Part shown: positions 28,619 through 46,787 of the stretch, in pieces
Numbering within the stretch: position 1 is the first letter of the stretch
Layout of the letters: each line of letters opens with the position of its first letter
From: an uncultured delta proteobacterium
Lineage (GTDB): Bacteria; Desulfobacterota; Zymogenia; Zymogenales; Zymogenaceae
Length of the DNA stretch: 64,000 nucleotides
Assembly: GCA_963792965.1 (NCBI GenBank)
Contig: CAWBYW010000016.1
Coordinates: 115,925 to 179,924 of the forward strand
Reading direction: 5' to 3'
Program-made: the position numbers and the translations under genes
Notes under the pieces: model-generated
What the model saw: only the letters and a program-made list of their open reading frames with translations
Database searches by the model: none
What the model was told of the DNA's origin: nothing

Positions 28619-29341
28619 TCAGCGCCACCCCCACTCGTATTGAACGATCGCGGCCGCCACCAGCGGCGCGGTCTCCGCCCGAAAAATGAGCCCGCCGAGG
28701 CCCGCCACAATAAGGCCGGCCTCCCGTGCGCCGGCGATCTCGGCACCCGAGAAACCGCCCTCCGGGCCGGTGAAAAGGGAGATCGTGCCGGGGGGGTCCG
28801 TCACCTCTCCGATGATCTCCTTTATTCCCCTGGTCTCCTCCTCCGAGAGGATGAGGGAAAGGCCCCCGCGAAGCTCGACGGCCTCCGAAAAAGCGAGGGG
28901 GGAATGCACCTCCAGCGCGCGGTTTCGCCGCGCCAGCCGGGACTCCTCCTCGGCGATCTTCTTCATTCGCGCAAGCTTCATGTCGCCGATATCACGCACG
29001 ATCGTCCGTGATGAAACAAAGGGAGTCACCGACGAAACGCCAAGCTCGGCCGCGTCCCGAACGAGGCGCTCCATCTTTTTCCCCTTCAGAAGCCCGATAA
29101 AGAGGTGAACGGCAAGCGAGGCCTCGGGGTGCGGCGGCATCTCTTCAATAACGACGAGCGACACCATCTTCCGTGAGACGGCCGCCGTCCGCGCCGCGAA
29201 CTCGTGCCCCCTCTCGTCCACAAGGCAGATCGTATCGCCGACCGAAAGCCTCAACACATCCCTGATATAGTGGGCCTGCTCGGACGAAGGCATGATCGCC
29301 GCCCCCGAGGAGAGCGTCCCCTTAACGAAGAGCCGCTTCAT
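28619..29341 (-). CDS. rsmE: 16S rRNA (uracil1498-N3)-methyltransferase RsmE
   Basis: An N-terminal PUA-like domain and a C-terminal SPOUT domain (GPEGGFS...AGLGGLIFRAETA). Confidence 0.8.
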   Translation of the reverse strand: MKRLFVKGTLSSGAAIMPSSEQAHYIRDVLRLSVGDTICLVDERGHEFAARTAAVSRKMVSLVVIEEMPPHPEASLAVHLFIGLLKGKKMERLVRDAAELGVSSVTPFVSSRTIVRDIGDMKLARMKKIAEEESRLARRNRALEVHSPLAFSEAVELRGGLSLILSEEETRGIKEIIGEVTDPPGTISLFTGPEGGFSGAEIAGAREAGLIVAGLGGLIFRAETAPLVAAAIVQYEWGWR

Positions 29342-31483: not shown

Positions 31484-33072
31484 GTGTACGGAACGGATGA
31501 AGGATACGACGGGTGGGAGGGATATCTTGCCTTATTCATGATTTTCGCGGTCGGCACCGCCCTCAGGGCGGTCATGCTTTTTCACCAGACCGTTATCTCG
31601 CCCGATAGTCCCGGGTATATTTATAATGCCCTCGCAATCGGTAAGGAAGGGCTGAAAAGTCTCTTCGCAGGCGGTTTCGCCGGGAATTTCTCCATCTACC
31701 CCATCTTCATCTACCTTACCAATCTCGTGATCGGCGATCCGGTATTGTCCGGTCAGCTGGTCTCGCTCGTATTCGGTTCGCTCGCTATTTTGCTCGTTTA
31801 TCCCATCACGAAAGAGATAATGGGTGCGCGGGCCGGGCTCATCGTCGCCTTTCTCGTGGCCGTTCATCCGCACCTGATCAGGTATTCGGGGATGGTCCTG
31901 AAAGACTCGACCCTGATCTTCTTCGCCCTCGGGGCTGTGGCCCTGGGTCTGTTTGGGTGCACGAGAAGGAACAGGCTCCTCATCGTCCTTGCCGGGATCT
32001 TGGCATGGACCACGGCGGTCGTGCGTCTGTATGGCATCATCGTCGTCCCCTCGCTCGCTCTCGCCATCGTTGTCTATACCCTTTTTCAGAGGGAAGGGAT
32101 AAAGGAGACGCTCCTTCGTCTGGCCCTCTTTCTCTTTCCCCTGCCCGTCGTGGGGTACATCGCGTTCCTCATCTTTATCGGGCCCCACAATGAATTCTTC
32201 ATCGAGAGTTTCCTGAAGGTCCTCACCATTGTCGTATCCTTTGTTCATCAGACCGGGACCTACCGGGACCTGCTTTTGCGTGGCAATCCCGAAATCAGTC
32301 GTGGTTATCTGGACGTGATAACCCGCTATCCCCGGGTTTCGGCCGCCGTTCATTTCGTTGCTGTTTTTGGAACCGCGTTCTTTTTTTTCTTTTTCGTCCT
32401 TTTTCTGTTGGGCATCTACATTGACAGGAAAAATCTCCTCAACAAGGGCCCGCGCCTCTTCATTCTTTCGTTTGCCTCGGTATACATCTTTTTCGATCTT
32501 GCCATTCTCATGGTCTTCTTCTTCCTCACGAAAAGGCAGCTCATGCCGCTCGTTATCGTTCTTCTCCCCTGGTCGGCGCTCACGTTCGAAAGGGGCATCA
32601 CGTGGCTCACGGACTATTCGCGTGCCCGCGCAGAAGAAGAACGCGGCAGATCCTTCGGGCGACAGTTCCGCTCCTCGCCGTTATCTGGATCGTCGGCGCC
32701 TTCTCTTACACAAGTTCTCCGACCGCGGAAGGTGCGCTGCTCGGGTACAAAAGGGCGGCGGGCGAGTATATCAAGGAGACGGCAGGCGGCCATCCCCTGA
32801 TTCTTCTTCCCCACGCCGATGCCGAAGGACTGGTCGTCTTCTATGCGGGCGCCGAGGGCATATCCTTCGATGACCCGGCCACAATCGAGAAGATGATCGA
32901 TACCGATGACCCCAATATCATCTTGTGGGATACGGTCCTCGGCCCCCTGCCGAAGGAGTTTCCTCTGCTGGTTGAGCACGGCAAAATCGAGCATATCACG
33001 ACGATACCGGGCTCAGGCACCAATGTTATCTATATCTATCGGAATACCCGAAACGAAACCGGCAGGCGGTAG
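31484..33072 (+). CDS. ArnT/PMT-family (GT39/GT83-like) membrane glycosyltransferase with C-terminal periplasmic domain (apparent frameshift at about 32620)
   Basis: Polytopic N-terminal region with a DxD-less PMT-like pattern. The tail of ORF 31484..32800 is nonsense, and ORF 32602..33072 continues in another frame. Confidence 0.6.
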
Positions 33073-33176: not shown

Positions 33177-33800
33177 TCAGTTGGTCGCCGGGACCACGTT
33201 GAAGGCCACGGAGGTGTAGTATTCATTGTCAAAATAGATGTCCCAGCGCCACTGACCCGTGGGGTCACCCGAGGGATTAAACCCCCAGTAGCTGGTAAAG
33301 ATGTCGCTGTCCGGCGTCAGCGTGGTGCTATAGACGGCGCGGTTCTCCGCCGGGTAGGTTTTATAGCTTCCCTCGCTCCCCTCCCAGAGGGTCCAGTTCT
33401 GGGGCGCATAGGGGAAAAACTCCTCTTCACGGTAGGAAACCGGATGTCCGCTGTTGCTTTTGTATTTGAATGAGATGCCGAAATAGGTGCTCGGGATGTA
33501 CGGTATGGTAGTCGCGTCCTCATACACGTAGAGATTTCCCGAGCCGTCGTCCTTCATCTTGCCCATCCTGAATTCAGTGATGACACACGTCGTGAGGGCT
33601 TGCGGGGGCGACATCCCGGGCCCGACCACGCTCGGCACTCCGGGCTGGGACGGCGCGCCATACGGCTGCGGGCCCGCGGGCCCCGCCTGTCCGGGTCCCC
33701 CGGCTCCTATCCCGAGCATCTGTTTGATCCTGTCGCATCCCGTCCCCGCGAAGGCCAGCGCAAGCACAAGGAGGGACAAAATAATCAGGTTCTTTCTCAT
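33177..33800 (-). CDS. Secreted protein / putative lipoprotein with Pro/Gly-rich linker, hypothetical
   Basis: Signal peptide with a Cys at position 22 and a PGQAGPAGPQPYGAPSQPG linker. The C-terminal domain is aromatic-rich. Confidence 0.45.
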   Translation of the reverse strand: MRKNLIILSLLVLALAFAGTGCDRIKQMLGIGAGGPGQAGPAGPQPYGAPSQPGVPSVVGPGMSPPQALTTCVITEFRMGKMKDDGSGNLYVYEDATTIPYIPSTYFGISFKYKSNSGHPVSYREEEFFPYAPQNWTLWEGSEGSYKTYPAENRAVYSTTLTPDSDIFTSYWGFNPSGDPTGQWRWDIYFDNEYYTSVAFNVVPATN

Positions 33801-33932
33801 ATCGTGCTCCTTTATCTATAGTCTATCATAGGCCGAAAAGTAGATGTTTTTCGTATAGTAATGAAATCGGGGTCCCCTGTCAAGGGGGGAAAGACCCGAC
33901 CCACCGTTTTGACGGACGACACCGGACCCGAT

Positions 33933-34580
33933 TCAGGGCAACCGTTCCCCCCGCGTGGACGCCCGGCCCTGCCCCCCGATAACCTTTACCGCCTCCTCAT
34001 AGGCCAGCACATACCCCCACCGATTTTTCTCCCTGTCCGTCCGCTCCGAAAGGAGCGCGTCGATCTCGCCGGTGTTCCGGGTGACGGGCTTGGGTCCCGA
34101 AAGGCCCTTTTTCAACGCGTCGATCTCGCCGGCATAGTAGACCGCGAGTCCCTCCGAAAACCAGAGCGGCACGTGGGTGCCGAAACGAAGCCGGAGAAGC
34201 GCGAGACACACCTCATGGGCGACGGTCGACTTCAACACCCCGCGCTCTTTCAGGACGTTCACCGGCTGCAGGTAGATCGATCCGTCGATCATCGCCGAGG
34301 CCGACCAGAACGGCAGCCTCGTCTGGGCCGTGAAATCTCCGGTCTCCTTGAAGATCACCACGTCGATGGGACGGCCCGCGCCGCTCCCAACCCTCGTTTC
34401 CATCGCGGTGTATGCCGATTCGAGGGCGTCCTTTACCTCCGAGAGCTCGCCGGCCCGAAGGGTCTCGGCGAAATAGATATTGAAATGCCGTGTCTGGGTC
34501 TGGGCAAAGTCAAGGGCGCCTGCCTCTCGGCTGATGACGAGAAGAAGGCACGAGATCAGAAATAGGAACGGTCTTCTCAA
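33933..34580 (-). CDS. Secreted hypothetical protein (last gene of the A2M-PBP operon)
   Basis: Signal peptide. There are 4-nt overlaps with the upstream PBP gene. No confident family is recognised (an HEVCL segment is present but there is no HExxH). Confidence 0.4.
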   Translation of the reverse strand: MRRPFLFLISCLLLVISREAGALDFAQTQTRHFNIYFAETLRAGELSEVKDALESAYTAMETRVGSGAGRPIDVVIFKETGDFTAQTRLPFWSASAMIDGSIYLQPVNVLKERGVLKSTVAHEVCLALLRLRFGTHVPLWFSEGLAVYYAGEIDALKKGLSGPKPVTRNTGEIDALLSERTDREKNRWGYVLAYEEAVKVIGGQGRASTRGERLP

Positions 34581-35605
34581 TCCGTATGCACGCCTCCGAA
34601 ATAGACGCGGAAAACCTCCCGGGCCACCGGCGCGGCATCCTCACCCCCCCGGCCGTGGTAGAGGAAGACGACCACGGCGATCTCGGGGTTCTCGGCGGGG
34701 GCAAAACCCAAGAACCAGGCGTGAGTCGCCCAGCTGGAGCCGAGGAACTCGCCGGTGCCGGTTTTGCCCATAATCTCGTGCCCGTCCGGCGTCCCCTTGA
34801 CGGCGGTTCCGTACGCCGCCGCATCGCGCATTCCCTCGGCGAGGATCGGCGCCGCGCGGGAAACCTCTACCTTCCTGTTGAGTCTCGGCGAAAATGAACC
34901 GATATCGTCTGCGGTGGGGGTCACGCGGGGAACCCAGATACTGCCCCCGTTCACGAGGGCCGAAAGATTCACGATCACCTGAAGGGGCGTCGCCGTGACG
35001 TTGTCGGTGTCTCCGATGACATACTCACGGGCAAACGCCGGCTCGGGGGGGATGAGCCTTCCCGCCTCCTCCTGTGGAAGGTTGACCCCGGTCTTTTCTC
35101 CAAACCCGAGCTCGGAAAGCCCCCGGTAGGTGGTGTCGGCGCCCAGCGTCTCGGCAAGGGAAAGGAAATAGAGATTACACGAGTAGGCGATCCCGCGGAC
35201 AAGGTTGAGATCACCGTGTCCGGGGGGGTACCAGCAATCGTATTTCGTTCCCGATATAACGGCACTCCCGGTACACCTGAAGCGAGCGTCGGGAGAGATA
35301 CGCTTCTCTTCGATCCCTTTCCAGACGCTCACAAGCTTGACGAGCGAGCCGGGGGGAAAGGCCCAGCGTGTCGCCATGTCGGGCCCCACCATCGCTCTGA
35401 TGCGTCCCGTCTTCACGTCCATGACGACGACCGCCCCGGTCCGGCCCGCCAGGGCGTCGGATGCCGCGCTTTCGAGGAGGGCGTCGCCTTTCAACACCTG
35501 TTCCGGGCCCGGCCTGCAACCCGAGGCGAAGAGAAATAAAAGGGCGACCCCCCCGATGAGGGGTCGCCGAAAGAGTAAACGAATCCGCCGCCGGATCCCC
35601 GTCAT
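34577..35605 (-). CDS. Penicillin-binding protein, transpeptidase-domain-only (PbpC-like partner of alpha-2-macroglobulin)
   Basis: Lipobox-like LFLFASGC. Transpeptidase motifs include SxxK (PGSLVKLV), SCN (YSCNLYF) and KTG (GKTGTGEF). There is no transglycosylase domain. It overlaps the A2M stop by 4 nt. Confidence 0.75.
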   Translation of the reverse strand: MTGIRRRIRLLFRRPLIGGVALLFLFASGCRPGPEQVLKGDALLESAASDALAGRTGAVVVMDVKTGRIRAMVGPDMATRWAFPPGSLVKLVSVWKGIEEKRISPDARFRCTGSAVISGTKYDCWYPPGHGDLNLVRGIAYSCNLYFLSLAETLGADTTYRGLSELGFGEKTGVNLPQEEAGRLIPPEPAFAREYVIGDTDNVTATPLQVIVNLSALVNGGSIWVPRVTPTADDIGSFSPRLNRKVEVSRAAPILAEGMRDAAAYGTAVKGTPDGHEIMGKTGTGEFLGSSWATHAWFLGFAPAENPEIAVVVFLYHGRGGEDAAPVAREVFRVYFGGVHTD

Positions 35606-38600
35606 TTCCCCTCGGTGATGACAAGGCTTGAGCTTCCCGTCCTTCCGAAGCGGTCCGGGAAGTACATCAGGTACGCCTCGGCCGGCATGACACCGTAGGT
35701 CCCCGGGTTTTGGGCGCGGAGGATATACTTGAAGACATAGGTCCCCACGTCGACGTAGTCCATCGATAGAGCGATCCGCTCATCCCGGAATTCCCTTCCG
35801 GCAAACCACCAGTCCGCATCGCCGGTATAGAGATCGTCCCCGGAGATGACATAGTTTTTATCGTCGCTGATGGCCTCATAGCCCGCCGGGTAGTAGTCCT
35901 CCAGCAGGAAGTATTGGGCCTTCTTGTCGGTCGTGACCGAAAGCTCCACGAGGATCTCGTCCCCGCTACTGACCGGGCCGCTGAGCGGCACCTTCGCGTA
36001 GATGAGCTCTCCCTTCTTGGGCACCTTCTTGAGGAGGTAGTACTTTCTGCTCACGGCAAATCCGGCGTTCAGCGGGGCTATCGAGGGGGCCGCGCTGTAG
36101 TGCGTGAAGGTCGAGGAATAGTAGAGGCTACCCGGCCCGTCCTTCTTGATGACGATCGTATTGGGGCCGGTCTTGAGATCCCCTTCCTTGACGGTAATCG
36201 TTCCCCCCTCGGTGAGCATCGTCTCCTTGGTGATGTGGCTCTTCTTGAGCTGTTTGCCGTTGAGGGTAAGCGTCATGGTGTAGTTCGGCTTGATCTCCCC
36301 GGTCCGGGTGATGTAGTCCGTCAGGGCATAGATGATCTTCCCCGTGGCCTTGGTGGAGCGCCAGTAGCTTCCGGTCCGGTTGATGATAAGCCAGCGGATC
36401 GTCTTGGGGATGAGGGGATTATTGACGTCGCGCATGGCCATCACCCGCAAAACGTACGCGGTGGTCTCCAGGGGATCGGCCTCCCAGTCCCACCAATAGA
36501 AGTCCTCTCCGACGTAACCCCAGTGAACATAGCCGTTCTCCTGGATCTTTTCCTTCATGAGCAGGTCATACAGGACGTTGGCCTTCTCCCGGATCCCCTC
36601 GTTCTCGTAGGCCAACAGCAGCATCGCCTGAGAAATGGGGGTGAGCTTGTCGCGCTTCTCGAACATCTCGTCGAGCCACGCGGTCTTGAGCTTGTCCGTG
36701 TAGGACAAGACGTAGAGGGCGTAGACCTTGACGGAGTCCTGATCGATCTTGCTCAGCTGAGAGATGAGGGACGCGGTGCCGCGCTTGATGACGCCCTCGT
36801 CCACGGTGATGGGAATGCCTGCCTCGGGAAGGAGGCGTTTCGCTTCGAGGAGCCCGTACAACACGTAGGCGGTCATGTAGGGATCGGTCTCGTCGAACTC
36901 GTACCACCCCCAGCCGTTATCGTCGTGCTGCCGTTTGTAGAGCACCATGAGCCCGCTCTTGATGTAGGCGGGGAGGTCCTTCTCTACGCTCTTATCGGAA
37001 AGGTCAAGCTTCTTTAATACCGACGCGACCATGACTGATGGCAAGAACCTTGCCATTACCTGCTCGTTTCACCCATAGGGGTAGCCGACGAGGAATGGTA
37101 TAGCGGCAAGCATTGTGTTGACGAGCGATGGACTGGTGGTAATGGTGAGCTCAGCAGCGTTCTTTATCGTGTTGGCGGGCTTGTTGACCGTCACCGTGAG
37201 CGTCCCGGAGTCCTTGATGATCTCTCCCATATCGTTCTTTGTCTCTTTGATGCCGAGCGGGAGGATCGGCACCTTTATCTCCATTCCGTCGGAGACCTCG
37301 TTGGTCATCGCCTTTGCCGTGAGAACGGCACTTCCCACGAGGTCCGCCCTGACGTGCCAGTCGACGCGCTTCTCTCCGTTTTTCGGGACGATTGCATCGA
37401 CCGGAACGCCGGAAGCGAGCGTCAATCCCTTTGCGTCGAACGTGAAGTGCACCTTCTTGTCGGTCGACAGGTAATTATGGGCGATGGTGGAGATTACGAG
37501 GTCGTCCCCCTGGCGCAGAAATCGCGGCGCCTCTATGCGGACGAGTAAGTCCTTGCGCTCGATGACCCGGTAGGTAGTCTCCCCCATGCTGTCGCCCGTG
37601 GTCACCCCCCGGACCGTCGCACGCCAACGCGTCAGGTTGTCCGGGAAGGTGACGGTGACCGTGGCCATACCCTTTGCGTTGGTCGTGATCGTGGGCGACC
37701 AGTACATCGTGTCCTTGAAGTCCTTTCGGATCAGCGGTTGAACGAGCGTGTCTCCCTTGAAGTCGGCAAGCTTCGTCTCTTTTTCCGGAAGTCCCGCCAG
37801 GAGTCCTTTCCGGTGAGAGTATCCGTAAAAGCGGAAGTAGAGGGATGACGACGTGTCCACGGAATGATAGCGCAGCGAGTAGAAATACTTCTGGATTTCG
37901 TCGACAAGCTCCGGTGAGATGGCGTAGATGGCGTCGTCCACGACGCCGAGCGACACCTCTGCCGACACGGGTTTGCCTGTGCTGTCCGTCGTCTTTATCG
38001 TAAAGGTGCCCTTTTCTTGCGGCTCGTACGTCGCCTTATTGGAGGTCACCTCGACGTTGATGAACTTTTCGGTCGGTGGGATGATGATGTTCTTGCTGTC
38101 CGAATAGAGCTCATCGTTGAAGATCGCGGCAACCGAGAGGTAGATGTTGGGGGTGTATCTCTCCTTTATGGGGAGATCCAGCATCGCCGTGCCACCCGTG
38201 GCTTTGATGACTCGGCTATCAAGGATCGAGTCTCCCTCGGTGGTAATCAACAGATAGGTATCCTTCACCGGCGCGGCGATCAGGATGTGGGCGGTATCGC
38301 CCACCGCGTAGGTATCCTTGTCGGGGATAATCGTGACGCCGCCCTCCGACGTCCCGCCGTAGGCATACCCCTCCGTAAAGGAATACGATGAGTCCTTGGC
38401 CGTGGTGGAGTTGCCCGCGTTATCGAAGACCGTGGCGATGAAATTGACGTCGCCCACGTTTTTCACCGTATATTCGATGACGGCGTCCCCACCGGAGTTC
38501 GTCCTTCCCGAAAGGGTGGCCGAGCTCGTGACCTTGCCCCCCTGCCAGTCGGTCTCCGTGACGATGAGCGTCACCGGCACATTCGCCACACCCTTGTTGT

Positions 38601-40254
38601 CAAAGTCGGAGACGTTGACCGTGATCCGCGCCTTATCCCCCGGCGCGTAGACCCAGCGGTCGGGACGTAGCGAAACGGTGTAGTTTGACCGAACGACCTT
38701 GACGACGCTGCTGGTGGTAACCACCCGGCGCGAGAGATCGGTAACGTTGGCCTCGATGGTGAAGGTATAGTCGTTGTCGGGCGACTCAAGGTATTGCGAC
38801 GTGTCTACCGTGAGCCTGAGCTTCCCGGCGTTGTCGAGCATAGCCGTGCCACTGTCCACCATGACCTTCTCGGTGGCGGTCCAGTAGTCTTCGTCCATGA
38901 AGTACCAGCCCCAGTCGTACCCCCACCACCAGGGGCGCTCGTAGACCGACCGGTAGACCGTATAGTCCACCTTGGCCTCCGTTACGGGGCTGCCGAAGTA
39001 GTAGCCCGCCTCGATATCGGCCGTGATCGTGTCGCCCCGGATGTAGACGTTCTTATCCGTCCTGATCTTGACCTCGTATTCGGGCTTCTTGTACTCCTCC
39101 ACCTTGAAGCTGTTGTAGTAGTTCTGTCCATTCAGTCCCACGACGATCTGATATTCGCCGAGCGAGGGCTCCTCTCCGAGGGTGAAGTCCCCCGAGAGGC
39201 TCCCGTACTTATTAATCTTATAGTTGTTCCGGAAGACCTCGTCGCCCTTGGCGTCGTCGATGATGACCAGGTAGTCGTCGCCGGTGTCGGGAACCTTCAG
39301 CCCCGAGTCGGTGGCGTTTCTCAGGATCGAGCGAAAATGCACCGTGTCGCCGGGACGGTAGACGGGTCGGTCGGTGTAGGTGTAGACCTTGTCGCTTGCT
39401 TCCCCTTCCCCGTAGGCATAGGGGTCGGCCAGGGTGAAGTTCTCGCCGTCCTGGGCGAAGACATAGATGACGTCACTCTCGGTCGCTTTCACCTTGGAGT
39501 AGTAGATCCCGTCGGAGTCCGTCTTCCCCTTGAAGAGGAGTTTTTTCTGGTTGTCGTAGACCGATACCTTAACGCCTTTCATCGGTTTGCCGGTTACCCG
39601 GTCGGCCACGTAGATAAGGCTGTCGGTGCTCGAGTTCTTCACGACAAACGACATGGGGGTAACGACGACCATCGTATAGGCCACCGAATCCTCAAAGACC
39701 GCCTCGACGAGGTAGCACCCCGGTTTCGGGACTTTGACGTCTATGTTGTGGTACTCCCACTGTCCACTGCCCGAGATGACCAACTTCTCCTGCCAGCGGT
39801 TGAGGAGCTTGAACTGGGTCAGGATCGGGAAGAGCTCGTAGGTCTGTGGCGCGGGTGAGACGGGCTCCTGGGCGTGCGGCAGGCCGAGTGCCGAGACGAC
39901 ATCGTCTCGGATGTTGTCGGAGAGTTTTGAGCGATAGTCGTCCCGGAAGAGTTCTACCCCCTTCCGTTTGATCGCCCCAACCATCTCGGCGGGGGCCGAT
40001 GTCCCCCGTTTCGTCGTCACCACCGGCGAGTGGACGTCATCGAGCCCGAGGAAGTACGATTTCGGATCGTCTACCCGGTAGAGCCGGATATCGAGGGACG
40101 GGACATCCATGGAGGAAACGGTGACGGTGACGGGCTCCCCCGGAGCGAAGATCTTGTCCGTGGAGAGCTCAAAGGAGCCTGCGAGCGTCACGGCCGGCAG
40201 TGTTAAGAGCAATACGATCGAAAGAATAAGGGACTTTTTCATAGTTTCCCTCAA
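35602..40254 (-). CDS. Periplasmic alpha-2-macroglobulin, about 1550 aa, interrupted by a single in-frame TGA at the thioester-cysteine position
   Basis: Signal peptide followed by about 1000 aa of MG-type beta-sandwich repeats. Then comes GYPYG-[TGA]-NEQ, aligning with the canonical GYPYGCxEQ thioester motif. An alpha/alpha-toroid thioester-containing (TED) domain follows (DDNGWGWY...), then a C-terminal receptor-binding-like domain. The two ORFs (37069..40254 and 35602..37056) are in the same frame and separated only by the TGA at 37069..37071. Confidence 0.8.
37038..37056 (-). promoter_or_regulatory. Perfect 8-bp stem-loop 12 nt downstream of the in-frame UGA (candidate bacterial SECIS element)
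   Basis: On the mRNA: UGA AACGAGCAGGUA AUGGCAAG-GUU-CUUGCCAU. The apical loop begins with G and lies about 20 nt from the UGA. Confidence 0.4.
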
Positions 40255-40485
40255 AGAATGGAGTATATCGTTGTTTGGTCTGTCACCGTGAGAGTGCGCG
40301 GCGACCGCGGCAATCCCCGGCTGTCGTTACCGATACGGAGGTAATAAGGATCCTTCCTCGAGAATCAGGGCTCGCCTCGTTGTGCCACATCGCCTGGCCT
40401 CCCACGATTCGGGCAGGAACGTTCCCCTGCAATGACCGAGAAGAGCTCCCACGATACTTTGGACCTCAAAAGCACCTATAAAGCT

Positions 40486-41583
40486 TTAGTTCAGTATCTT
40501 GAACCGATAATAACCCAAAAAATGGTCGTTCTCTCTTACCGGCCGCCAGCGCTCGTCCGGATGCACTTTGAGCGTGGCGAGCCTGACCTTCCTCACGTCC
40601 CCGTTATCGTGGGAGCGCGGGCCGGTGTGATAGACGAGCCAATCTTCGTTTACGTCCGAATCGCTCTCCTTTCCCCACTCGCCGAGGTAGATCATCATAT
40701 GGGAGGGCATCCGGGGGTTTTCCGGGTTGAAGAAAAAGAGGAGATCACCGGGAAGAATACCCTTCTCGGTTCGCCCGAGGAACACGACGTTGTACTGAAG
40801 CAGCGCCTCGGCCGATGCCGCCGCAGAAAAGTTGACGCCGATATCGGAAGGGACAAACGGCCCCGGCGCCGTCCGAAAGACATCGACTCCCAGCAGCGGC
40901 ACGTGGGGATAGGTGTACTTCTTCACGTCGGGATTTGCGGGGCTGACCAGCGTCGCGTAGGAGGAAAAGAAAGCGTCGTCGTGGCGCTTGAGCGCCTCGA
41001 CATAGGCAAAACGCACAAGCCCCGCACAGTCCCGGTTGATCTGGTCCCAGTGGCGGTTCTTCTCGTAGACTTGAGATTCCGCGATGGCGCAGAGCCACCG
41101 CCGGAAGTTGAGGCGGTCTGTGTCGCCGAAGAGCTCCACCACATCGGGAAACCCGTCCCCGTCCCGGTCACGCATGTCGGGGATAACATTCACCTGTGCC
41201 CGGGCAGGCGCCACCCCCGGAGACTCGGCCCGGATCGTGAGGTCACCCGTCTCGAAGGTCGAGATGAGCGTGAGGGAGGCCGTTCCGCGGACAAACGCGA
41301 GCGGTCCTGTTTCCACCCTTGTCGTCGCCGGGCCGACAAGCGTCACCGTAAGGGGTGCGCCGCAGCCGCGCGCAACATTCCCCCTGTCGGTCTTTGCAAG
41401 GATCGTGATCTCCACGGTATCTTCCTTGTTGGCCCAGAGCGTCTGCTTTGACACGGCGATCTCGATGCTTTTGGCCTTTGCGCACGACGTGATCAAACAG
41501 GCCAACAGGAGCGTCGAAAGGATCGCCGCTCCGCCTTTAATCCAGGTCCTTGACCCTGATCTTAAACCCGCCTTGAATTGCAT
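40486..41583 (-). CDS. DUF1175 (YfaT-like) family protein with N-terminal extension
   Basis: Lipobox-like LLLACLITSC. The C-terminal half carries the DUF1175 signature RDCAGLVRFAYVEAL...GDLLFFF...MMIYLGE...LVYHTGP...ERWRP...FLGYYRF, collinear with E. coli YfaT. The N-terminal about 170 aa add an Ig-like extension. Confidence 0.65.
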   Translation of the reverse strand: MQFKAGLRSGSRTWIKGGAAILSTLLLACLITSCAKAKSIEIAVSKQTLWANKEDTVEITILAKTDRGNVARGCGAPLTVTLVGPATTRVETGPLAFVRGTASLTLISTFETGDLTIRAESPGVAPARAQVNVIPDMRDRDGDGFPDVVELFGDTDRLNFRRWLCAIAESQVYEKNRHWDQINRDCAGLVRFAYVEALKRHDDAFFSSYATLVSPANPDVKKYTYPHVPLLGVDVFRTAPGPFVPSDIGVNFSAAASAEALLQYNVVFLGRTEKGILPGDLLFFFNPENPRMPSHMMIYLGEWGKESDSDVNEDWLVYHTGPRSHDNGDVRKVRLATLKVHPDERWRPVRENDHFLGYYRFKILN

Positions 41584-43280
41584 CACCGCTGAAGTTGACC
41601 CCCCCGTAGCATGAGACAAAAGATCTTCTGGTCAGTTCCACGAGCGGCACGAGCCGCTTTTCCGAATCCTGGTAGAGAAAGTATTTATAGTTTGCCGAGA
41701 TGTTGACGAGATAACCCTCGATCAACGACATGGCGTTGTTCCCGTCTACGTAGAGATAGAGGTCGTAGGCGTCTTTCGGCATGTCTTTTTGCGCCGAGAT
41801 GAACGCGGGCGACTTCACGAGAAAATCGCGGTCAAAAAGGCCGCCCGCCCCCGTCATCGAGGAAATAACAGAGAGGTCGTTGAGCTGCTCCATCGTCGAA
41901 AGGTCCCAGAAGAGGAAGAGCCTGTCATCCTTGAGCGCAAAACCAGGATTAGGCTTGACGGAGGCGACGTACGACGTCCCGTTCCAATCGAGGCTCTTTT
42001 CCCTGAACTGGCCCATATAGGAGATGTGAGCGGCGTCAAGCTCGAGGGGAGACGGGCCCGCATCTGAAGAATGAATAGCTGTAGAGCTTGCCGATATTGG
42101 TGGAAAGGGCCTCTTCTTTGCCCGGTGCCACCCCAACGGAGGCGATCGTCCTGAGGTACGGTTTTTCTCCCTCATACCCGATCCCGACGAGGGCCGCCAG
42201 CGCCCCCCTGCCGAGGTTGTTGATGATTCCACCCTCCAGGTCGAATCCGCCCTTGTCCTTCCATTTTTTCAGGATCGAGATGTAGTTTACCTTTTGGGCG
42301 ATGTCGGTAAACCAGACCTTCCCGAAATGGGTATAAAGGATGCCGGGGTCGAAGGCCCGAAACGCCACGAGCGCCGCCGTCTCGCCGGGCATCGCCGATA
42401 GGTCTATTGTCGCCTTATCGGAGAGCGACCCCAGCCCCGCCAGGAGGCTTTTCCCCTCGCCCCCGGTGTAGGGGGCAAAGAGCGTGATATCCGCGCCGGC
42501 CTCGGAAAAGGTGACCGAGAAAAGGAGCGCGTCCGTCCCCTTGAGAAGCCGTCTGGCATGGGCGACGATGCCCATCTCGGAGTCATCGGGGCTCATCGCC
42601 TTCGTTGAATAGAAAAGGATATGGTAGTCCTTTGGCAGGTGGGAGAGCCGATCCATGACGGCGGGGTTTCCGGAGAGGTTCTTTGGGTTTTGCCCCGTAA
42701 CGATGTCCCACTCGGATTTGAAGAGATCGGGGGAGTCGGAGACGATCGTATAGCCTTTGACGTTCTTGTAATAGATCTTCTTGTCTGTGCTCGCGACAAC
42801 CCAGACGGAATAGGAGCCCCAGTTTTCCTTCGTCACGTGGCTCGAAAAGATCGAAAAGAGGTTGATGAGAAAACCCTTAAACCAGCCCGTCTCAAGCAGC
42901 GCCGCCGAGGCCTCCTTTCCCTCGAGGGTCGTCCGATAGAAGACGGCCCGCGCACCTATGACCCACAGGAAGCGTTTCAGGGTCGGGCGAATCCCGGTCA
43001 TCTTCTCGATAGTCCCGAGCCTGGAGAGCATCGGGGCCGAGAGGTCGCTCTTGATCGGGCCCTCAAAGAGCGAAAGATCGCCGACTTCATCAAAATAATC
43101 GCTTGAGAGCAACGGCCTCAATCCTGCCCTGAGGTCCCTGAGGTAGACGAAGGAGTCTACGTTCTCCGGGATGATCTGATAGAGCTCGTAGGCGTCTCCG
43201 GCCACGGCACTAAGGGCCCCAAGCGAAAGGGCCGCGATAACGACCGCGCCGATCAGACATGCCCTGATCTTAGATCTCAT
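41537..43280 (-). CDS. Large secreted protein, YfaA/DUF2138-like (tentative), split by one apparent frameshift
   Basis: ORF 42036..43322 gives a signal peptide plus about 400 aa and ends in nonsense. ORF 41537..42232 starts in nonsense then continues with LELDAAHISYMGQFREKSL... The position upstream of DUF1175 mirrors the yfaA-yfaT arrangement. Confidence 0.45.
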
Positions 43281-43299
43281 GAATCCCTCCTTTTCTCCG

Positions 43300-43839
43300 C
43301 TATCGGCCGATGGGGCCCGCAAATGACTCGGGATCGGCCCCCGCCCGGAGGATCGTATTGTAGTACCTCAGCGTGACGATGTGAATCACCCGCTCGCGCA
43401 TAGTATCGGGGGTCGCCTTCATGAGAGCGGGGAGGTCCTTGTAGAAATCCTTCAGCGACTCGTTCACGTCGCTCTTCATCTCGGGCGTCGGCGCGCCGGC
43501 ACGACCGAGGCCCGGAGGTTCTTGTATTCGTCCCACTCGGCGTCAAGGATGACGTCCAGCGCGTCTCCCACGGCACCTGTGTCCGTCCCGCCGGGCTGGC
43601 TGTAGTCCGTACCCGACGGCGTCTCGGAGACCGTGGGAGGCACAAGCATCCTGGTCCCGGGCGGCGGCGATCATCTCCCACTCGTGGCGAGGGACGTCCG
43701 GATCTCGCTTTTGCGGCTTGGGATAGCCCGCCTTGATCTGATCGATCGCAAGGGTAACGTCGGCAAAGACCCCCCCGACCTTCGGACCCTTCTCTCCGGG
43801 CGCGGGCGCCTTTTTTTCGCAGGCCCACGAGAAGATCAA
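43300..43839 (-). CDS. Small secreted/lipoprotein, hypothetical (frameshifted)
   Basis: ORFs 43543..43839 and 43300..43536 look like two halves of one gene (signal-peptide-like LLSFLLIFSWAC...; C-terminal half KDFYKDLPALMK...). No family is recognised. Confidence 0.3.
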
Positions 43840-43911
43840 GAGAAACGAGAGGAGCCCAAGAATCGGCCAGAGCAGTCCCGGTCGGGCGCTCAGTCCGTCC
43901 CGCCGTTTCCG

Positions 43912-44779
43912 TCAGGATCGGCCGAGCGCCGAGAGGATCTCGGCCAGCGCCCGATCCGAGCGATACGTATTGGTCTTGATGTTCCATCCCTTCTCCTTCA
44001 AACCGATTAAGAGCTGGGTAACCTCGGGCAGAAACGGCCTCACGCCGTCGAGCGCCGCCCGGTCGGAAAAGAGTTCTTCCGGGGTGCTGTCTAGTTTGAT
44101 CTTCCCCTTCTCGATAACGACGATCCGGTCGGCCACCCGGATGATTTCTTCCATGTCATGGGAGATGATGATGACGGTCTTGTTCTTGGCGTTGAGGGCC
44201 TTGATGTGCCGGATGGTCTCGGTCCTCGACTGGGGATCAAGTCCCTGGGTGGGCTCGTCGAATATGAGTATGGGAGGATCCATAGCGAGGATCGAGGCGA
44301 TGGCGACCTTGCGCTGCTCACCGCCGGAAAGGGTGAACGGCGAGCGCGTCCTGAGCCGGTCGATGTCAAGGTTGACGAGGCCTGCCGCATCACGACACTC
44401 GCCTTTCGACCTCCTCTTTCGAAAAACCCCCTCGGTTGACGAGGGAAAACGCGATCTCTTTCTCGACCGTCTCCTCAAAGAGCTGGTGCTCGGGATACTG
44501 AAAGACGAGCCCTACCATTTCCCGCAGCCTGCCGGTCTTCTTGGTGGCGGGCGTCAGGTCAAAATCACCGACGCGGACGCTCCCCTTCGCGGGCGTCAGC
44601 AGTCCGTTGAGGTGCAGCGCCAGCGTCGTCTTCCCCGAGCCGGTGCGCCCGATCAGCGCGACGAACTGGCCCTCCTCGATCGAGAGGTTCACCCCCGAGA
44701 GCGCCTCCTTTTCCAGCGGCGTATTGGGGAAAAAGACATGCGAGAGGTCTTTTATCTCGATGAGCGGTGCGGTCGTCAT
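43912..44779 (-). CDS. ABC/ECF-type transporter ATP-binding protein (CbiO/EcfA-like), apparent frameshift at about 44410
   Basis: Walker A (GRTGSGKTT) and Q-loop in ORF 44390..44779. Signature (LSGGEQRKVAIA), Walker B (ILIFDEPTQGLD) and H-loop in ORF 43912..44478. Confidence 0.7.
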
Positions 44780-45033
44780 GAGACTTTGTAGACCATGTCG
44801 CCCGGCCGAACCCTGTCTTTGATCTTGATCCCCACGAGTGCGCCTGACGCGACCTCGGTTACCGGGGCGTTGTCGATCTGCATCGACTCCACCACTTCCG
44901 TGAAATCGGTCGTCGCACCCTTGAAGCGGAGCTCGTCCCCAACCTTGAGGGAGCCCTCGACCTTTATGGCGGCAACCGACGGCTTGGCAAAGAACTTGAT
45001 GACCTCTCCGATTTTTACCTCACTTGACATCAC
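44776..45033 (-). CDS. Small beta-barrel protein resembling EF-Tu/SelB domain II (tentative)
   Basis: 85-aa ORF with a G-rich beta-barrel pattern (IKVEGSLKVGDELRFKG...GALVGIKIKDRVRPGDMVYKV). It lies immediately downstream of selA. Confidence 0.35.
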   Translation of the reverse strand: MMSSEVKIGEVIKFFAKPSVAAIKVEGSLKVGDELRFKGATTDFTEVVESMQIDNAPVTEVASGALVGIKIKDRVRPGDMVYKVS

Positions 45034-45052
45034 ACTCCTCCTCCCGTGGTAG

Positions 45053-46524
45053 TCAGCATGATCTATCCTTATTCATTCCCTTCTCATGGCCGACAGGATT
45101 CCGTTTGCGAGGTCCGTGACCTCCCTCTCCAGGACGGTTCGAGGATCGATGACGAGGCTCTCGTCCGAGATTCGTGCGATAATGGTCGGATGCTTGCGTC
45201 CTCAAGCGTCTCTCGAGCGCCTCGGGGCTCTCGGCCAGCGGAGCAATCGTTACCACCCTTGTCGGGATCTGTGCGGTGGGAAATGCCCCGCCGCCCACTC
45301 CCGAGAAGTCATCGGCGGTCGTGACGTGGAACTTCGGATGGGGCGTGGCCGCCAGCAGCTTCACGATCCTTTTGGCCCTTTTCTTCGTCTCGTCATAGGA
45401 CATCGTAATCATCGCCAGGACCGGGATCTTTTTTCGCGCATCAAACGGGTCCCGATAAATCATCAGGGTCGATTCGACGGCGGCAAGCGACAGCTTATCG
45501 ATCCTCACGGCCCGCGCCAGTGGGTTCTTTTTAATGCGGTCCGATCGGGTCCGCCTCCCCTACGATGAACCCCGCCTGGGCACCGCCCAACAGCTTATCG
45601 CCCGAAAAACGTAATGACATCGACGCCCGATTTAATCACTTCCGAGACGGTCGGCTCATGGGGGAGGCCCCAGGGCCCGAGATCCATGAGCGAGCCGCTG
45701 CCGAGGTCCTCCATGACCGGGATGTCATATTTTTTCCCGAGCCCGACGAGCTCGGCGGTCGACACTTCCTCGGTGAACCCGACGATCCGGTAATTGGAGG
45801 TGTGGACCTTGAGGAGGAGCGCGTCTGGCCGACCCGATGGCGCTCTCGTAGTCCGAAAGCCCTCGTCCGGTTCGTCGTGCCGACCTCTCTGAGGCGCGCG
45901 CCGCTCTTTTCCATGACATCCGGGATACTAAAAGCGCCGCCGATCTCCACCAGCTCTCCCCGTGAGACGATGACGTCCCTGCCGTCGGCAAGAGTATTGA
46001 GCGCAAGCAACACGGCCGCGGCGTTGTTGTTGACCGCAAGGCCCGCCTCCGCGGAGGTGATATGGGCGATCAGGTCGGAAACGTGGTCGTGGCGGGATCC
46101 CCGCTCTCCGCGCTCGACGTTGAATTCGAGATTGGAATAGCCCGAGGCGATGCGTACGATATGCTCGAGGGCCTCCGCGGCGAGGGGCGCGCGGCCGAGG
46201 TTTGTATGCAAGATAATCCCCGTGGCGTTGATGACGGGCGCAAGCTGACGGCGTGACCGATTTGATCAGCCACTGCTCGATGAGCGACAAGAGCTCCGGC
46301 TCCGAGACTTCGGCGGGATGCTCTTTGGACATGAGCTCTTTTCGCGCGGACAAAATGGCGCCTCTCACCGCCTCCTTTACCACCATCCTCGGAAAGCGCC
46401 TCGATAGTTCCGTGACCATGGGGTGAGCCAGCAGCTTATCCACCGCGGGGAGTTTGGCGAGAGGGGATTTTTGTGCCGGGTTTTCCGACTTTCTTGGCAT
46501 GGCGCCGCTCGAGATTTTTTCCAT
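45053..46524 (-). CDS. selA: L-seryl-tRNA(Sec) selenium transferase SelA, fragmented into 4 or more frames
   Basis: N-terminus KLPAVDKLL. Core [11 protein letters not shown]...[56 protein letters not shown] is nearly identical in pattern to E. coli SelA (PLP-lysine region). The C-terminal domain is [20 protein letters not shown]... The pieces lie in ORFs 45928..46524, 45636..46211, 45725..46039 and 45053..45508. Confidence 0.75.
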
Positions 46525-46787
46525 CTATACCATACTTTGACGGATTTCTCAAGGAAAATAAGGCTCTATGGGCGACGAACCTGACCCTCCCGCGCGGTTC
46601 TCAGTTCGGAAATGGAGATTTTGACCCTCAGGCGAGCGAAGGGCTCGGGGGGCCGAGCCCCGCCAAGACAAACGATTCCGCCGCTCATTATCTGACGGTA
46701 AAGGTAACTGAAGTCAGCTCCGCTCCACCCGAATCGGAGCCGTTCATGCGCAGGTCGTAGCTTCCGGGGGTCGTCGGGCCACAAGGC

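What the first reader, a model, noticed from the sequence alone, without database searches (positions are those of the whole stretch)
33177..43322. Composite alpha-2-macroglobulin operon combining pbpC-type and yfaS-type accessory genes, with a transpeptidase-only PBP
Bacterial A2M genes are known in two contexts. One is yfhM-pbpC: a thioester-containing A2M paired with PBP1C. The other is a yfaS-type A2M with the yfaP/Q/A/T accessory genes. Here a single co-directional cluster contains genes of both types. Immediately upstream of the A2M sit a YfaA/DUF2138-like secreted protein and a DUF1175 (YfaT-like) protein carrying an extra Ig-like N-terminal domain. Immediately downstream sits a PBP that has only the transpeptidase domain and no glycosyltransferase module, with 4-nt overlaps implying translational coupling. 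Two further small secreted proteins follow. The A2M also lacks a lipobox, unlike YfhM-type proteins. This hybrid architecture, together with the UGA at the thioester site, suggests an uncharacterised variant of the periplasmic protease-trapping and cell-wall-repair system.
Basis: partly seen in the sequence, partly recalled or inferred. Interest (0 to 1): 0.7.

Follow-up and report, generated by a model that had tools for sequence, protein, structure and literature searches.

The report
Selenocysteine alpha-2-macroglobulin in a conserved envelope-defence operon
The gene cluster is real and conserved, and its main surprise is that the reactive cysteine of the protease-trapping alpha-2-macroglobulin is encoded by UGA read as selenocysteine, which would replace the protein's thioester 'warhead' with a more reactive selenoester.

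Summary
The minus-strand cluster at 33177-43322 exists largely as described. It encodes a DUF1175/MagC lipoprotein, a roughly 1546-aa alpha-2-macroglobulin (A2M) without a lipobox, a 342-aa transpeptidase-only PBP joined by 4-nt overlaps, and two small exported proteins.

Three corrections apply:
- The upstream "YfaA/DUF2138" gene is not DUF2138 by any sequence test. Its remote relatives carry DUF3352, and in this window it has a 1-nt frameshift.
- The PBP resembles class B PBP2/MrdA, not PbpC.
- The arrangement is not a one-off. It is syntenic across Candidatus Zymogenaceae, and MagC-A2M with a nearby TP-only PBP recurs in Acidobacteriota.

The key result concerns the UGA at the CxEQ cysteine. 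It is conserved in all eleven close protein clusters (58-100% identity). It is followed by the longest invariant nucleotide run of the gene, 35 nt, which forms a hairpin fitting the bacterial SECIS consensus. Close Cys orthologues have TGC or TGT instead and have lost the hairpin.

A metagenome scan found the same UGA in at least eight other A2M lineages, with different but compensating stems. selA lies 5 kb upstream. I found no report of a selenocysteine A2M. Selenoester formation is inferred, not shown.

The parts
35602..40242 (-). Alpha-2-macroglobulin gene. It encodes 1546 aa including one in-frame UGA, has a Sec-type signal peptide and no lipobox, and ends in its own TGA stop.
   Evidence: Pfam domains are. 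The single reading frame is shown. Orthologues are listed. dN/dS is 0.09-0.26 both upstream and downstream of the UGA. The stop codon is TGA.
37069..37071 (-). UGA codon at the Cys position of the CxEQ thioester motif (GYPYG-U-NEQ). It is read as selenocysteine.
   Evidence: Sequence context is. All 11 close protein clusters end in ...LVGYPYG. TGA is present in the DNA of every orthologue read, while Cys orthologues have TGC or TGT. The same pattern occurs in other lineages.
37038..37056 (-). Candidate SECIS hairpin, AUGGCAAG-GUU-CUUGCCAU. The stem base lies 12 nt after the UGA and the apical loop 20 nt after it. The invariant block spans 37037-37071.
   Evidence: The fold is shown. The 35 nt starting at the TGA form the longest invariant run in the 4.68-kb alignment of six orthologues; the next-longest run is 14 nt. 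The hairpin is lost in Cys forms. The Sec-versus-Cys energy comparison is and the covariation count.
40486..41619 (-). MagC/DUF1175 (YfaT-like) lipoprotein with an additional N-terminal Ig-like region. The lipobox is LITSC.
   Evidence: Pfam DUF1175 matches at 5.4e-61, with weak NlpC/P60 and Ig-like hits. The solved P. aeruginosa MagC structure 7bk8 matches at 1.8e-14. Synteny is shown.
41537..43280 (-). Gene for a roughly 580-aa membrane-anchored or secreted protein at the yfaA/magB position. Its family is related to DUF3352, not DUF2138. In this window it is interrupted by a 1-nt insertion near 42065.
   Evidence: The frameshift is shown. There is no Pfam hit. Remote homologues carry PF11832. 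hhalign against YfaA is negative. The same gene lies upstream of MagC-A2M in L010, L100 and L108. The AF2 model has pLDDT 82.8.
34577..35605 (-). Transpeptidase-only penicillin-binding protein of 342 aa. It is class-B-like, carries SLVK, SCN and KTG motifs, and has a lipobox-like ...ASGC. It is translationally coupled to the A2M through an ATGA overlap.
33933..34580 (-). Secreted 215-aa protein with weak similarity to MA-clan metallopeptidases. Its conserved motif is HE[VT][CA]L...EGLA, so the second His of HExxH is absent. It overlaps the PBP stop as TTGA.
   Evidence: Homologues lie next to TP genes near MagC-A2M in Acidobacteriota.
33177..33800 (-). Putative 207-aa lipoprotein of the PM0630 (PF27186) family. 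It is the last conserved gene of the cluster.
   Evidence: Orthologues carry PF27186 in precomputed annotations. tblastn identity to the L001 gene is 59%.
45194..46500 (-). selA (selenocysteine synthase). It lies about 5 kb upstream in conserved synteny and is apparently frameshifted in this assembly.
   Evidence: tblastn with the L001 SelA protein is. Orthologous loci carry intact SelA (PF03841).

Best explanation
GENE CLUSTER
The locus is a conserved envelope-defence cluster of a Candidatus Zymogenaceae-type deltaproteobacterium. In transcription order its products are:
- a roughly 580-aa DUF3352-related protein
- a MagC/DUF1175 lipoprotein with an NlpC/P60-like fold
- a periplasmic, non-lipidated alpha-2-macroglobulin of the YfaS/COG2373 lineage
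- a class-B-like transpeptidase-only PBP that is probably a lipoprotein
- a small MA-peptidase-like secreted protein
- a PM0630-family lipoprotein

SHOWN BY COMPARATIVE SEQUENCE EVIDENCE
The A2M is one gene. The codon for its reactive-centre residue is UGA, recoded as selenocysteine by a SECIS hairpin that starts 12 nt downstream. The product is therefore a full-length protein of about 170 kDa with a U-N-E-Q centre.

INFERRED
- After export and folding, the selenol of Sec1058 attacks the side-chain amide of Gln1061 and forms an internal selenoester. This would mirror how thioesters form in A2M and C3.
- Cleavage of the bait region then exposes this bond, which acylates lysines of the attacking protease.
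- Selenoesters are better acyl donors than thioesters. The Sec form should therefore capture proteases faster than its Cys paralogues.
- The neighbouring peptidoglycan-directed proteins (MagC and the TP-only PBP) would tie protease trapping to maintenance of the cell wall.

The confidence given (0.8) applies to the shown part, namely one gene, UGA read as Sec through a SECIS element, within a conserved cluster. The selenoester step and the defence role are less certain, at about 0.55.
For: 1. All 11 close protein clusters (58-100% identity) were truncated by gene callers at the same residue...LVGYPYG.
2. The DNA of seven independent loci shows TGA there, followed in frame by NEQVMARFLPS... and about 488 further codons with no stop. 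dN/dS is 0.09-0.26, the same as upstream of the UGA.
3. In the 4.68-kb alignment of six orthologues, only 11% of third codon positions are invariant. The longest invariant run is 35 nt and begins exactly at the TGA; the next-longest is 14 nt. Ten of the 11 following third positions are invariant.
4. That block folds into an 8-bp hairpin with a GUU loop. The loop lies 20 nt after the UGA. This matches the bSECIS consensus: a G followed by G or U in the first loop positions, 16-37 nt from the UGA (PMC13188914).
5. Cys orthologues nested in the same clade have TGC (L007) or TGT (L118; 86% nucleotide identity to a Sec form over the N-terminal part). Both have lost the hairpin.
6. A pattern scan of metagenomes found 27 contigs with TGA at this position, in at least eight further A2M lineages. 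Their stems differ but compensate: GGCAAG/CUUGCC, GGGAC/GUCCC, GGCAG/CUGCC, GGGCAA/UUGCCC and GCAG/CUGC.
   - On seven sequences in the same register, 90.5% of cells are paired and two pairs change on both sides. Only 1 of 500 shuffles reaches these values, and slid-register controls score far lower.
   - The Sec form L096 and its 85%-identical Cys form L009 encode the same peptide, SRFLP. Only the Sec form uses the synonymous codons that build the stem.
7. Hairpin stability at nt 13-42 has a median of -9.8 kcal/mol in Sec genes and -4.2 in 85 Cys homologues, p=1.7e-7.
8. UGA is still an ordinary stop in this genome, because both the A2M and the PBP end in TGA.
9. selA lies 5 kb upstream here and in every orthologous locus.
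10. For the cluster as a unit: synteny holds in all Zymogenaceae loci, genes overlap by 4 nt, and MagC co-occurs with TP or the 215-aa homologue in distant phyla at 23/25 versus 3/26 loci.
11. Published work links the related mag operon to resistance against peptidoglycan-targeting T6SS effectors (PMC12663445).
Against: - There is no experimental evidence for Sec insertion, such as 75Se labelling or mass spectrometry.
- selB, selC and selD are not in the window. No tRNA-Sec was found in the window or in the 14 related loci scanned.
- Rfam has no matching SECIS family.
- RNAalifold found no consensus on the ungapped 16-sequence alignment, because the hairpin register differs between lineages.
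- Three scan lineages (L095/L113, L101, L111) have weak or displaced hairpins.
- The metagenome pattern itself required YPYG, EQ and M. It cannot therefore show that those residues are conserved.
- Selenoester formation from a Gln amide is chemically plausible but has never been shown in a protein. It may be thermodynamically less favourable than thioester formation.
- The window assembly is rich in indels, and selA itself looks frameshifted.
- The functional link between the A2M and the TP, MagC and other neighbours rests on gene neighbourhood only.
Confidence: 0.8

Rival explanations
1. The UGA is a genuine stop. The A2M is then made as two polypeptides: an exported N-terminal part of 1057 aa, and a 484-aa C-terminal part re-initiated at the AUG five codons downstream. 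The conserved hairpin would serve termination-reinitiation coupling. No thioester or selenoester would exist.
For: An in-frame AUG lies 15 nt after the UGA. Every gene caller split the gene there.
Against: - That Met is invariant in Cys-type A2Ms too, so it is not a dedicated start codon.
- The AUG is base-paired inside the conserved stem. This would hinder initiation.
- The C-terminal part would lack a signal peptide and could not reach the periplasm.
- The stop falls exactly on the catalytic Cys and alternates with TGC or TGT in close orthologues, which have lost the hairpin.
- The same pattern recurs in at least eight lineages.
Confidence: 0.05
2. The TGA is a sequencing error or a recent nonsense mutation, so the gene is a pseudogene in an indel-rich assembly.
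For: Several genes in the window are broken by frameshifts: AAA_33, selA, the ABC ATPase, the 580-aa gene and PMT_2.
Against: - The TGA is present in more than 20 independent contigs from different samples and sequencing centres.
- The sequence downstream of the UGA is under the same purifying selection as the sequence upstream.
- A point substitution is not the indel type of error seen elsewhere in the window.
Confidence: 0.01
3. Selenocysteine is inserted but does not form a selenoester with Gln. It might instead act as a redox-active or metal-binding residue, or as a free nucleophile, so that this A2M works differently from thioester A2Ms.
For: Most known selenoproteins are redox enzymes (PMC13188914). 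No protein selenoester has been described in the literature searched.
Against: - The residue replaces precisely the thioester Cys.
- The E and Q of CxEQ, and the surrounding TED sequence, are kept in the homology-defined clade.
- Sec and Cys forms interchange at up to 85-88% protein identity (C-terminal part) without other changes at the site. This argues for the same chemistry.
Confidence: 0.15
4. The accessory genes (TP-only PBP, 215-aa protein, PM0630, 580-aa protein) are simply neighbours kept by synteny in one family. They have no functional tie to the A2M.
For: - L003 and L004 lack the upstream MagC and 580-aa genes.
- Most other Sec-A2M lineages have no TP nearby.
- In Acidobacteriota, the TP and 215-aa-type pair is usually on the opposite strand.
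Against: - The genes overlap by 4 nt: A2M/TP and TP/215-aa.
- The order A2M-TP-215aa-PM0630 is kept even where the upstream genes differ.
- In distant phyla, MagC-positive loci co-occur with TP or the 215-aa homologue at 23 of 25 loci, against 3 of 26 MagC-negative loci.
- The order 580-aa-like, MagC, A2M recurs in L010, L100 and L108.
Confidence: 0.15

Closest known systems
Type I bacterial A2M with PBP1c (E. coli YfhM/ECAM-PbpC, Salmonella Sa-A2M)
   Same: Both have a multi-MG-domain A2M with a bait region, a TED domain and an xEQ reactive centre. Both have a peptidoglycan-synthesis enzyme encoded immediately downstream. The proposed role in periplasmic protease trapping plus wall repair is also shared.
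   Different: - The reactive residue here is UGA/Sec, not Cys.
- There is no lipobox.
- The neighbouring PBP is a 342-aa class-B-like TP domain. It lacks the glycosyltransferase and C-terminal modules and gives no detectable hit to PbpC.
- MagC lies upstream.
- Similarity to YfhM (121 bits) is lower than to YfaS (207 bits).
Type II bacterial A2M operons (P. aeruginosa magABCDEF; E. coli yfaA-yfaT-yfaS-yfaQ-yfaP)
   Same: Both have a signal peptide without a lipobox. Both have MagC/DUF1175 directly upstream (match to PDB 7bk8 MagC at 1.8e-14). Both have a gene of about 560-600 aa with an N-terminal hydrophobic segment upstream of that. This A2M's closest E. coli homologue is YfaS.
   Different: - Type II A2Ms lack CXEQ (PMC5764988). 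This one keeps the centre as UNEQ.
- No DUF2138, DUF2300 or DUF2135 genes are present.
- The upstream gene is related to DUF3352 instead.
- A TP-only PBP, a 215-aa protein and a PM0630 protein lie downstream.
Bacterial selenoproteins with Cys homologues (for example FdhF and the roughly 119 catalogued families)
   Same: Shared features are an in-frame UGA aligned with a catalytic Cys, Sec/Cys pairs among close orthologues, a stem-loop directly downstream with G then U or G in the apical loop, and selA in the genome.
   Different: - The family is not among the catalogued families in the reviews searched.
- The predicted role is acyl transfer through an internal ester, not redox chemistry.
- The protein is a Sec-pathway-exported periplasmic protein of about 170 kDa.
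Eukaryotic thioester proteins (A2M, C3/C4, insect TEPs)
   Same: The TED domain and the GCxEQ-type reactive centre are shared, as is bait-triggered covalent capture.
   Different: All described members use Cys. No Sec form was found in the literature searched.

Membership tests
Bacterial selenoprotein gene (Sec-UGA plus bSECIS) | In-frame UGA aligned with a Cys in homologues | tested here: met
   The UGA sits at C1058 of the invariant C-x-E-Q motif. Cys orthologues are P0002/L007 (TGC) and P0121/L118 (TGT).
Bacterial selenoprotein gene (Sec-UGA plus bSECIS) | UGA conserved among orthologues, with the downstream ORF under purifying selection | tested here: met
   Eleven protein clusters end at the same residue. 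TGA is present in all DNA read. The C-part has dN/dS of 0.09-0.26 and no stops.
Bacterial selenoprotein gene (Sec-UGA plus bSECIS) | Stem-loop immediately downstream, with the apical loop 16-37 nt from the UGA and G(G/U) at the start of the loop | tested here: met
   The stem is 8 bp and the loop is GUU, 20 nt after the UGA. The consensus is taken from PMC13188914.
Bacterial selenoprotein gene (Sec-UGA plus bSECIS) | The structure, not only the sequence, is conserved (covariation), and it is absent from Cys forms | tested here: met
   Covariation is shown, different stems, the synonymous-codon contrast between L096 and L009, and the Sec-versus-Cys MFE comparison. RNAalifold on the ungapped alignment failed.
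Bacterial selenoprotein gene (Sec-UGA plus bSECIS) | Sec machinery (selA, selB, selC, selD) in the same genome | tested here: inconclusive
   selA is in the window (frameshifted in this assembly) and intact in orthologous loci. No tRNA-Sec was found in the window or loci. selB and selD are not within the sequence held.
Bacterial selenoprotein gene (Sec-UGA plus bSECIS) | Selenium demonstrated in the protein | not testable with these tools
   This requires 75Se labelling or mass spectrometry.
Type I bacterial A2M (YfhM/ECAM type) | CXEQ thioester motif | tested here: inconclusive
   The motif is present as U-N-E-Q, with Sec in place of Cys. Ester formation has not been tested.
Type I bacterial A2M (YfhM/ECAM type) | Lipoprotein signal (lipobox Cys) | tested here: not met
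   The signal peptide has no Cys.
Type I bacterial A2M (YfhM/ECAM type) | Adjacent pbpC (class A PBP1c with glycosyltransferase and transpeptidase) | tested here: not met
   The neighbour is a 342-aa TP-only, class-B-like protein. There is no GT51 domain and no hit to PbpC.
Type II bacterial A2M operon (MagD/YfaS type) | A2M lacks CXEQ | tested here: not met
   The reactive-centre motif is retained as UNEQ.
Type II bacterial A2M operon (MagD/YfaS type) | MagC/YfaT (DUF1175) encoded directly upstream | tested here: met
   PF06672 matches at 5.4e-61. PDB 7bk8 MagC matches at 1.8e-14.
Type II bacterial A2M operon (MagD/YfaS type) | YfaA-type DUF2138 gene upstream of MagC | tested here: not met
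   No PF09909 hit was found. hhalign probability is 0.2-0.3%. Remote homologues carry DUF3352. A comparison at fold level with DUF2138 was not possible, because afdb50 was unavailable and PDB holds no such structure.
Type II bacterial A2M operon (MagD/YfaS type) | YfaQ (DUF2300) and YfaP (DUF2135) genes downstream | tested here: not met
   The downstream genes are the TP, the 215-aa protein and PM0630. Among related loci, YfaQ/YfaP phmmer searches gave YfaQ hits in only two and none for YfaP.
Class B PBP (PBP2/MrdA, FtsI) | Transpeptidase domain with SxxK, SxN and KTG motifs | tested here: met
   SLVK, SCN and KTG are conserved in seven orthologues. TIGR03423 matches at 1.2e-60, covering the C-terminal half only.
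Class B PBP (PBP2/MrdA, FtsI) | N-terminal pedestal/dimerisation domain and a TM anchor | tested here: not met
   Only about 56 residues precede the TP domain, and they contain a lipobox-like G-C. The score is below the equivalog cutoff: 205.8 against 455.

The most novel reading that the evidence does not exclude
Bacteria have repeatedly replaced the thioester cysteine of alpha-2-macroglobulins with selenocysteine. This would create a natural protein selenoester 'warhead'. It would be the first selenoprotein whose selenium serves acyl transfer and covalent capture rather than redox chemistry, and it sits in a large, Sec-pathway-exported periplasmic protein. Sec/Cys pairs at 85-88% protein identity (C-terminal part) would offer a ready-made natural experiment on why selenium is chosen over sulfur.
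Probability: 0.55. Interest if true: 0.92.

Novelty: new variant of a known kind. Interest (0 to 1): 0.85.

Why it matters
If selenocysteine is inserted and forms the internal ester, three things follow.

1. Selenium biology would extend beyond redox catalysis into acyl-transfer 'warhead' chemistry. Synthetic chemists already exploit this reactivity in selenoester ligation, but it has not been described in a natural protein.
2. Thioester-protein research (A2M, complement, TEPs) would gain a natural variant of higher reactivity. Closely related Cys controls exist for direct kinetic comparison.
3. A2M-based protease-capture tools could be improved.

The result also shows that annotation pipelines systematically split these genes into two 'hypothetical' ORFs. 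The family is therefore invisible in current catalogues.

Separately, MagC-A2M(CxEQ) with a TP-only PBP is common in Zymogenaceae and Acidobacteriota. The Type I/Type II scheme, derived from Proteobacteria, is therefore too narrow. This strengthens the link between bacterial A2Ms and protection of peptidoglycan.

Tried and rejected
- Rfam at gathering threshold on the whole window, and at E<=10 around the UGA, gave no SECIS family.
- RNAalifold on the ungapped 16-sequence alignment predicted no structure, because the hairpin register differs by 1 nt between lineages. I used a same-register subset instead.
- The covariance model R1 mostly recovered primary-sequence similarity. It was not informative about structure.
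It returned only relatives at 38% identity or less, all of the Cys type, so it gave no taxonomy for the Sec clade. Those loci were reused as the Cys control set and for the neighbourhood statistics.
- The P0001 look-up found no record.
- The DUF2138 hypothesis for the 580-aa gene was tested with Pfam, NCBIfam, two hhalign runs, a profile search of 1.84 billion proteins and a profile word search. All were negative for DUF2138.
- A scan of the window for other in-frame-TGA selenoprotein genes found none that was convincing. The best candidate, at 24985-24987, is a histidine-kinase/response-regulator gene junction.
- The promoter and terminator scan was not above shuffled expectation for promoters.
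- No tRNA-Sec was found in 14 related loci.

Full report
WHAT IS THERE

All genes of the finding lie on the minus strand. In transcription order they are:
- **A gene for a protein of about 580 aa (43280-41537).** In this window it is split into ORFs of 428 and 231 aa by a 1-nt insertion near 42065 (TTCTTC-A-GATGCG). Orthologues are intact at 580-604 aa.
- **A 377-aa MagC/DUF1175 protein (41619-40486).** Pfam PF06672 matches at E=5.4e-61. There are weak NlpC/P60 and Ig-like hits in the extra N-terminal region, and the lipobox is LITSC. It matches the solved P. aeruginosa MagC structure 7bk8 at 1.8e-14.
- **The alpha-2-macroglobulin (40242-35602).**
- **A 342-aa transpeptidase-only PBP (35605-34577).**
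- **A 215-aa secreted protein (34580-33933).**
- **A 207-aa lipoprotein (33800-33177).** Its orthologues carry Pfam PM0630.

The A2M stop and PBP start overlap as ATGA. The PBP stop and the next start overlap as TTGA. The A2M signal peptide contains no Cys, so it has no lipobox.

THE A2M IS ONE GENE WITH AN IN-FRAME UGA AT THE THIOESTER CYSTEINE

- The 1057-codon N-part carries bMG3, MG2, bMG5, A2M_BRD and A2M. The 488-codon C-part carries TED and bMG10. Both are in the same frame.
- They are separated only by TGA at 37069-37071, in the context LVGYPYG-TGA-NEQVMARFLPSV.
- In an alignment with nine full-length relatives, C-x-E-Q is invariant at exactly this place.

THE UGA IS CONSERVED, NOT ACCIDENTAL

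- A search of 5.8 billion proteins returned eleven clusters at 58-100% identity. Each is 1057-1063 aa long and every one ends ...LVGYPYG.
- The DNA of seven such loci from different samples has TGA at this codon. It is followed in frame by NEQVMARFLPS... and an uninterrupted C-terminal part.
- dN/dS of the part after the UGA is 0.09-0.26, the same as before it, with synonymous sites near saturation.
- UGA has not been reassigned in this organism. Both the A2M and the PBP terminate with TGA.

A SECIS-LIKE HAIRPIN FOLLOWS THE UGA AND BEHAVES LIKE ONE

- The 33 nt after the UGA are identical in all Sec orthologues, although flanking codons vary freely.
- In the codon alignment of six full-length orthologues, 11% of third positions are invariant. 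The longest invariant run in 4,680 columns is 35 nt and starts at the TGA. The runner-up is 14 nt.
- The block folds as AUGGCAAG-GUU-CUUGCCAU. The stem base is 12 nt after the UGA and the loop 20 nt after it.
- This fits the published bacterial consensus: a G followed by G or U at the start of a small apical loop, 16-37 nt from the UGA (PMC13188914).
- Two Cys orthologues are nested within the clade. P0002/L007 has TGC. P0121/L118 has TGT and is 86% identical in nucleotide sequence (over the N-terminal part) to the Sec form L119. Both have several substitutions in this block, an Ala-to-Ser change, and no hairpin.

THE PHENOMENON IS RECURRENT

- A metagenome scan for YPYG-TGA-x-EQ-x-M found 27 contigs.
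- Besides the window's clade, at least eight other A2M lineages carry the UGA. They read through into TED sequence and have a hairpin at the same offset built from different, compensating stems.
- On seven same-register sequences, 90.5% of cells pair. Pairs 20-30 and 22-28 change on both sides. Only 1 of 500 shuffles matches this, and slid registers score far lower.
- Hairpin stability at nt 13-42 has a median of -9.8 kcal/mol in Sec genes and -4.2 in 85 Cys homologues, p=1.7e-7.
- In a distance tree of C-terminal parts, Sec forms are scattered among Cys forms.
- The Sec form L096/L100 is 85% identical to the Cys form L009. Both encode the same SRFLP peptide. Only the Sec form uses AGG and CUG, which build the stem, where the Cys form uses CGG and UUG.
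- selA lies about 5 kb upstream in the window and in all orthologous loci.
- Three scan lineages have weak or displaced hairpins. No tRNA-Sec, selB or selD lies in the sequence held.

TAXONOMY

NCBI names on the Cys orthologues are 'Deltaproteobacteria bacterium / Candidatus Zymogenaceae bacterium'.

THE OPERON CLAIM

- **Synteny within the clade.** The order SelA, 84-86 aa gene, ABC ATPase, ~190 aa gene, ~590 aa gene, MagC, A2M, TP, ~220 aa gene, PM0630 is kept in every Zymogenaceae locus with enough flank. L003 and L004 keep only A2M-TP-230aa-PM0630.
- **Distant relatives.** Among 80 Cys-type relatives at 38% identity or less, mostly Acidobacteriota, MagC is directly upstream in 31 of 66 loci. 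A TP and/or a homologue of the 215-aa protein lies within 10 kb downstream in 23 of 25 MagC-positive loci, against 3 of 26 MagC-negative loci. Most of these TP ORFs are 270-390 aa, and the pair usually lies in convergent orientation.
- **The 580-aa family.** It also precedes MagC-A2M in L010, L100 and L108.
- **Conclusion on distribution.** The architecture is a conserved, widespread module and not a one-off chimera. The literature held describes only Type I (CXEQ plus PBP1c) and Type II (no CXEQ, magABCDEF) (PMC5764988, PMC3735191).
- **Affinity of the A2M.** It is closer to E. coli YfaS (207 bits) than to YfhM (121 bits).

- **The PBP is not PbpC-type.**
  - Its best NCBIfam match is pbp2_mrdA at 1.2e-60, covering the C-terminal half only.
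  - Its closest solved structures are the TP domains of MrdA, SpoVD and FtsI.
  - It has no hit to PbpC.
  - SLVK, SCN and KTG are conserved, and a lipobox-like G-C precedes the domain.
- **The 215-aa protein is not a true HExxH protein.** It has HE[VT][CA]L...EGLA, so any metallopeptidase activity is doubtful.

MECHANISM

*Shown by comparative evidence.* The A2M is translated through the UGA, most plausibly as Sec.

*Inferred.*
- The Sec selenol forms an internal selenoester with Gln1061 after folding in the periplasm.
- Bait cleavage exposes this bond, and it acylates the protease.
- From general chemical knowledge (not tested here), selenols are more nucleophilic and better leaving groups than thiols, and selenoesters acylate amines much faster than thioesters. 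That would raise capture efficiency for a monomeric, tethering-type A2M.
- MagC has an NlpC/P60-like fold. Together with the TP-only PBP, it suggests coupling to peptidoglycan. This is consistent with the finding that the mag operon protects P. aeruginosa against peptidoglycan-targeting T6SS effectors (PMC12663445).

NOVELTY

- Two full-text searches combining selenocysteine or selenoprotein with macroglobulin found nothing relevant.
- The 2022 and 2026 reviews of the prokaryotic selenoproteome (the latter covering 119 families) and the deep-Sep paper contain no mention of macroglobulin, thioester, A2M or MG2.
- Public annotations split the gene into two ORFs.
- Absence from this library is not proof of absence elsewhere.

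Noticed in passing
window 41500-49400 and 31500-33050: Several genes are broken into two or three reading frames relative to intact orthologues: the AAA_33 kinase-like gene, selA, the ABC ATPase, the 580-aa gene and PMT_2. This suggests an indel-rich assembly, possibly from long reads, rather than real pseudogenes.
   Followed up: partly
window ~45194-46500 (-); L001 3920-5383, L005 3686-5110, L006 3582-5030, L007 3579-5027, L118 3772-5235: selA sits about 5 kb upstream of the A2M cluster in every Zymogenaceae locus, including the two whose A2M has reverted to Cys. It is followed by a conserved 84-86-aa gene, which in L005 has EF-Tu domain-2-like Pfam hits. It is unclear whether this linkage is functional or coincidental.
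   Followed up: no
window 33933-34580 (-): The 215-aa protein, weakly similar to MA-clan peptidases and flagellinolysin, has a conserved HE[VT][CA]L...EGLA motif. The second His of HExxH is missing in all six orthologues.
   Followed up: partly
L013, L014, L018, L025, L030-L035, L044, L046, L048, L050, L053, L056, L059, L062, L064 (Acidobacteriota): A TP-only PBP and a larger protein containing the 215-aa-type domain form a gene pair. It usually lies 0.7-3 kb downstream of MagC-A2M on the opposite strand. In some loci (L021, L028, L035, L044, L056, L084) the TP hit lies in an ORF of 720-1040 aa, which may be a fusion.
   Followed up: partly
L095, L113, L101, L111: These UGA-containing A2M lineages have weak hairpins (GAGC-CGUGU-GCUC, -3.8 kcal/mol), a hairpin displaced downstream (L101: UUACCUGC-GGU-GCAGGUAA), or GC-rich ambiguous folds. 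They may use atypical SECIS elements, or they may be pseudogenes.
   Followed up: no
window 29322-31316 (-); L003 18359-20563, L006 18092-20332, L007 18121-20349: A CHASE2-guanylate/adenylate cyclase gene, often with a FecR-like gene, is conserved just beyond the PM0630 gene in the orthologous loci. It may be a signalling module linked to the cluster.
   Followed up: no
window 24985-24987 (-): An in-frame TGA lies between a histidine-kinase ORF (328 codons) and a response-regulator ORF (146 codons) in the same frame, with a -10.9 kcal/mol hairpin downstream. I judged it an ordinary gene junction, possibly affected by an indel, and not a selenoprotein.
   Followed up: partly
[not shown]
   Followed up: partly
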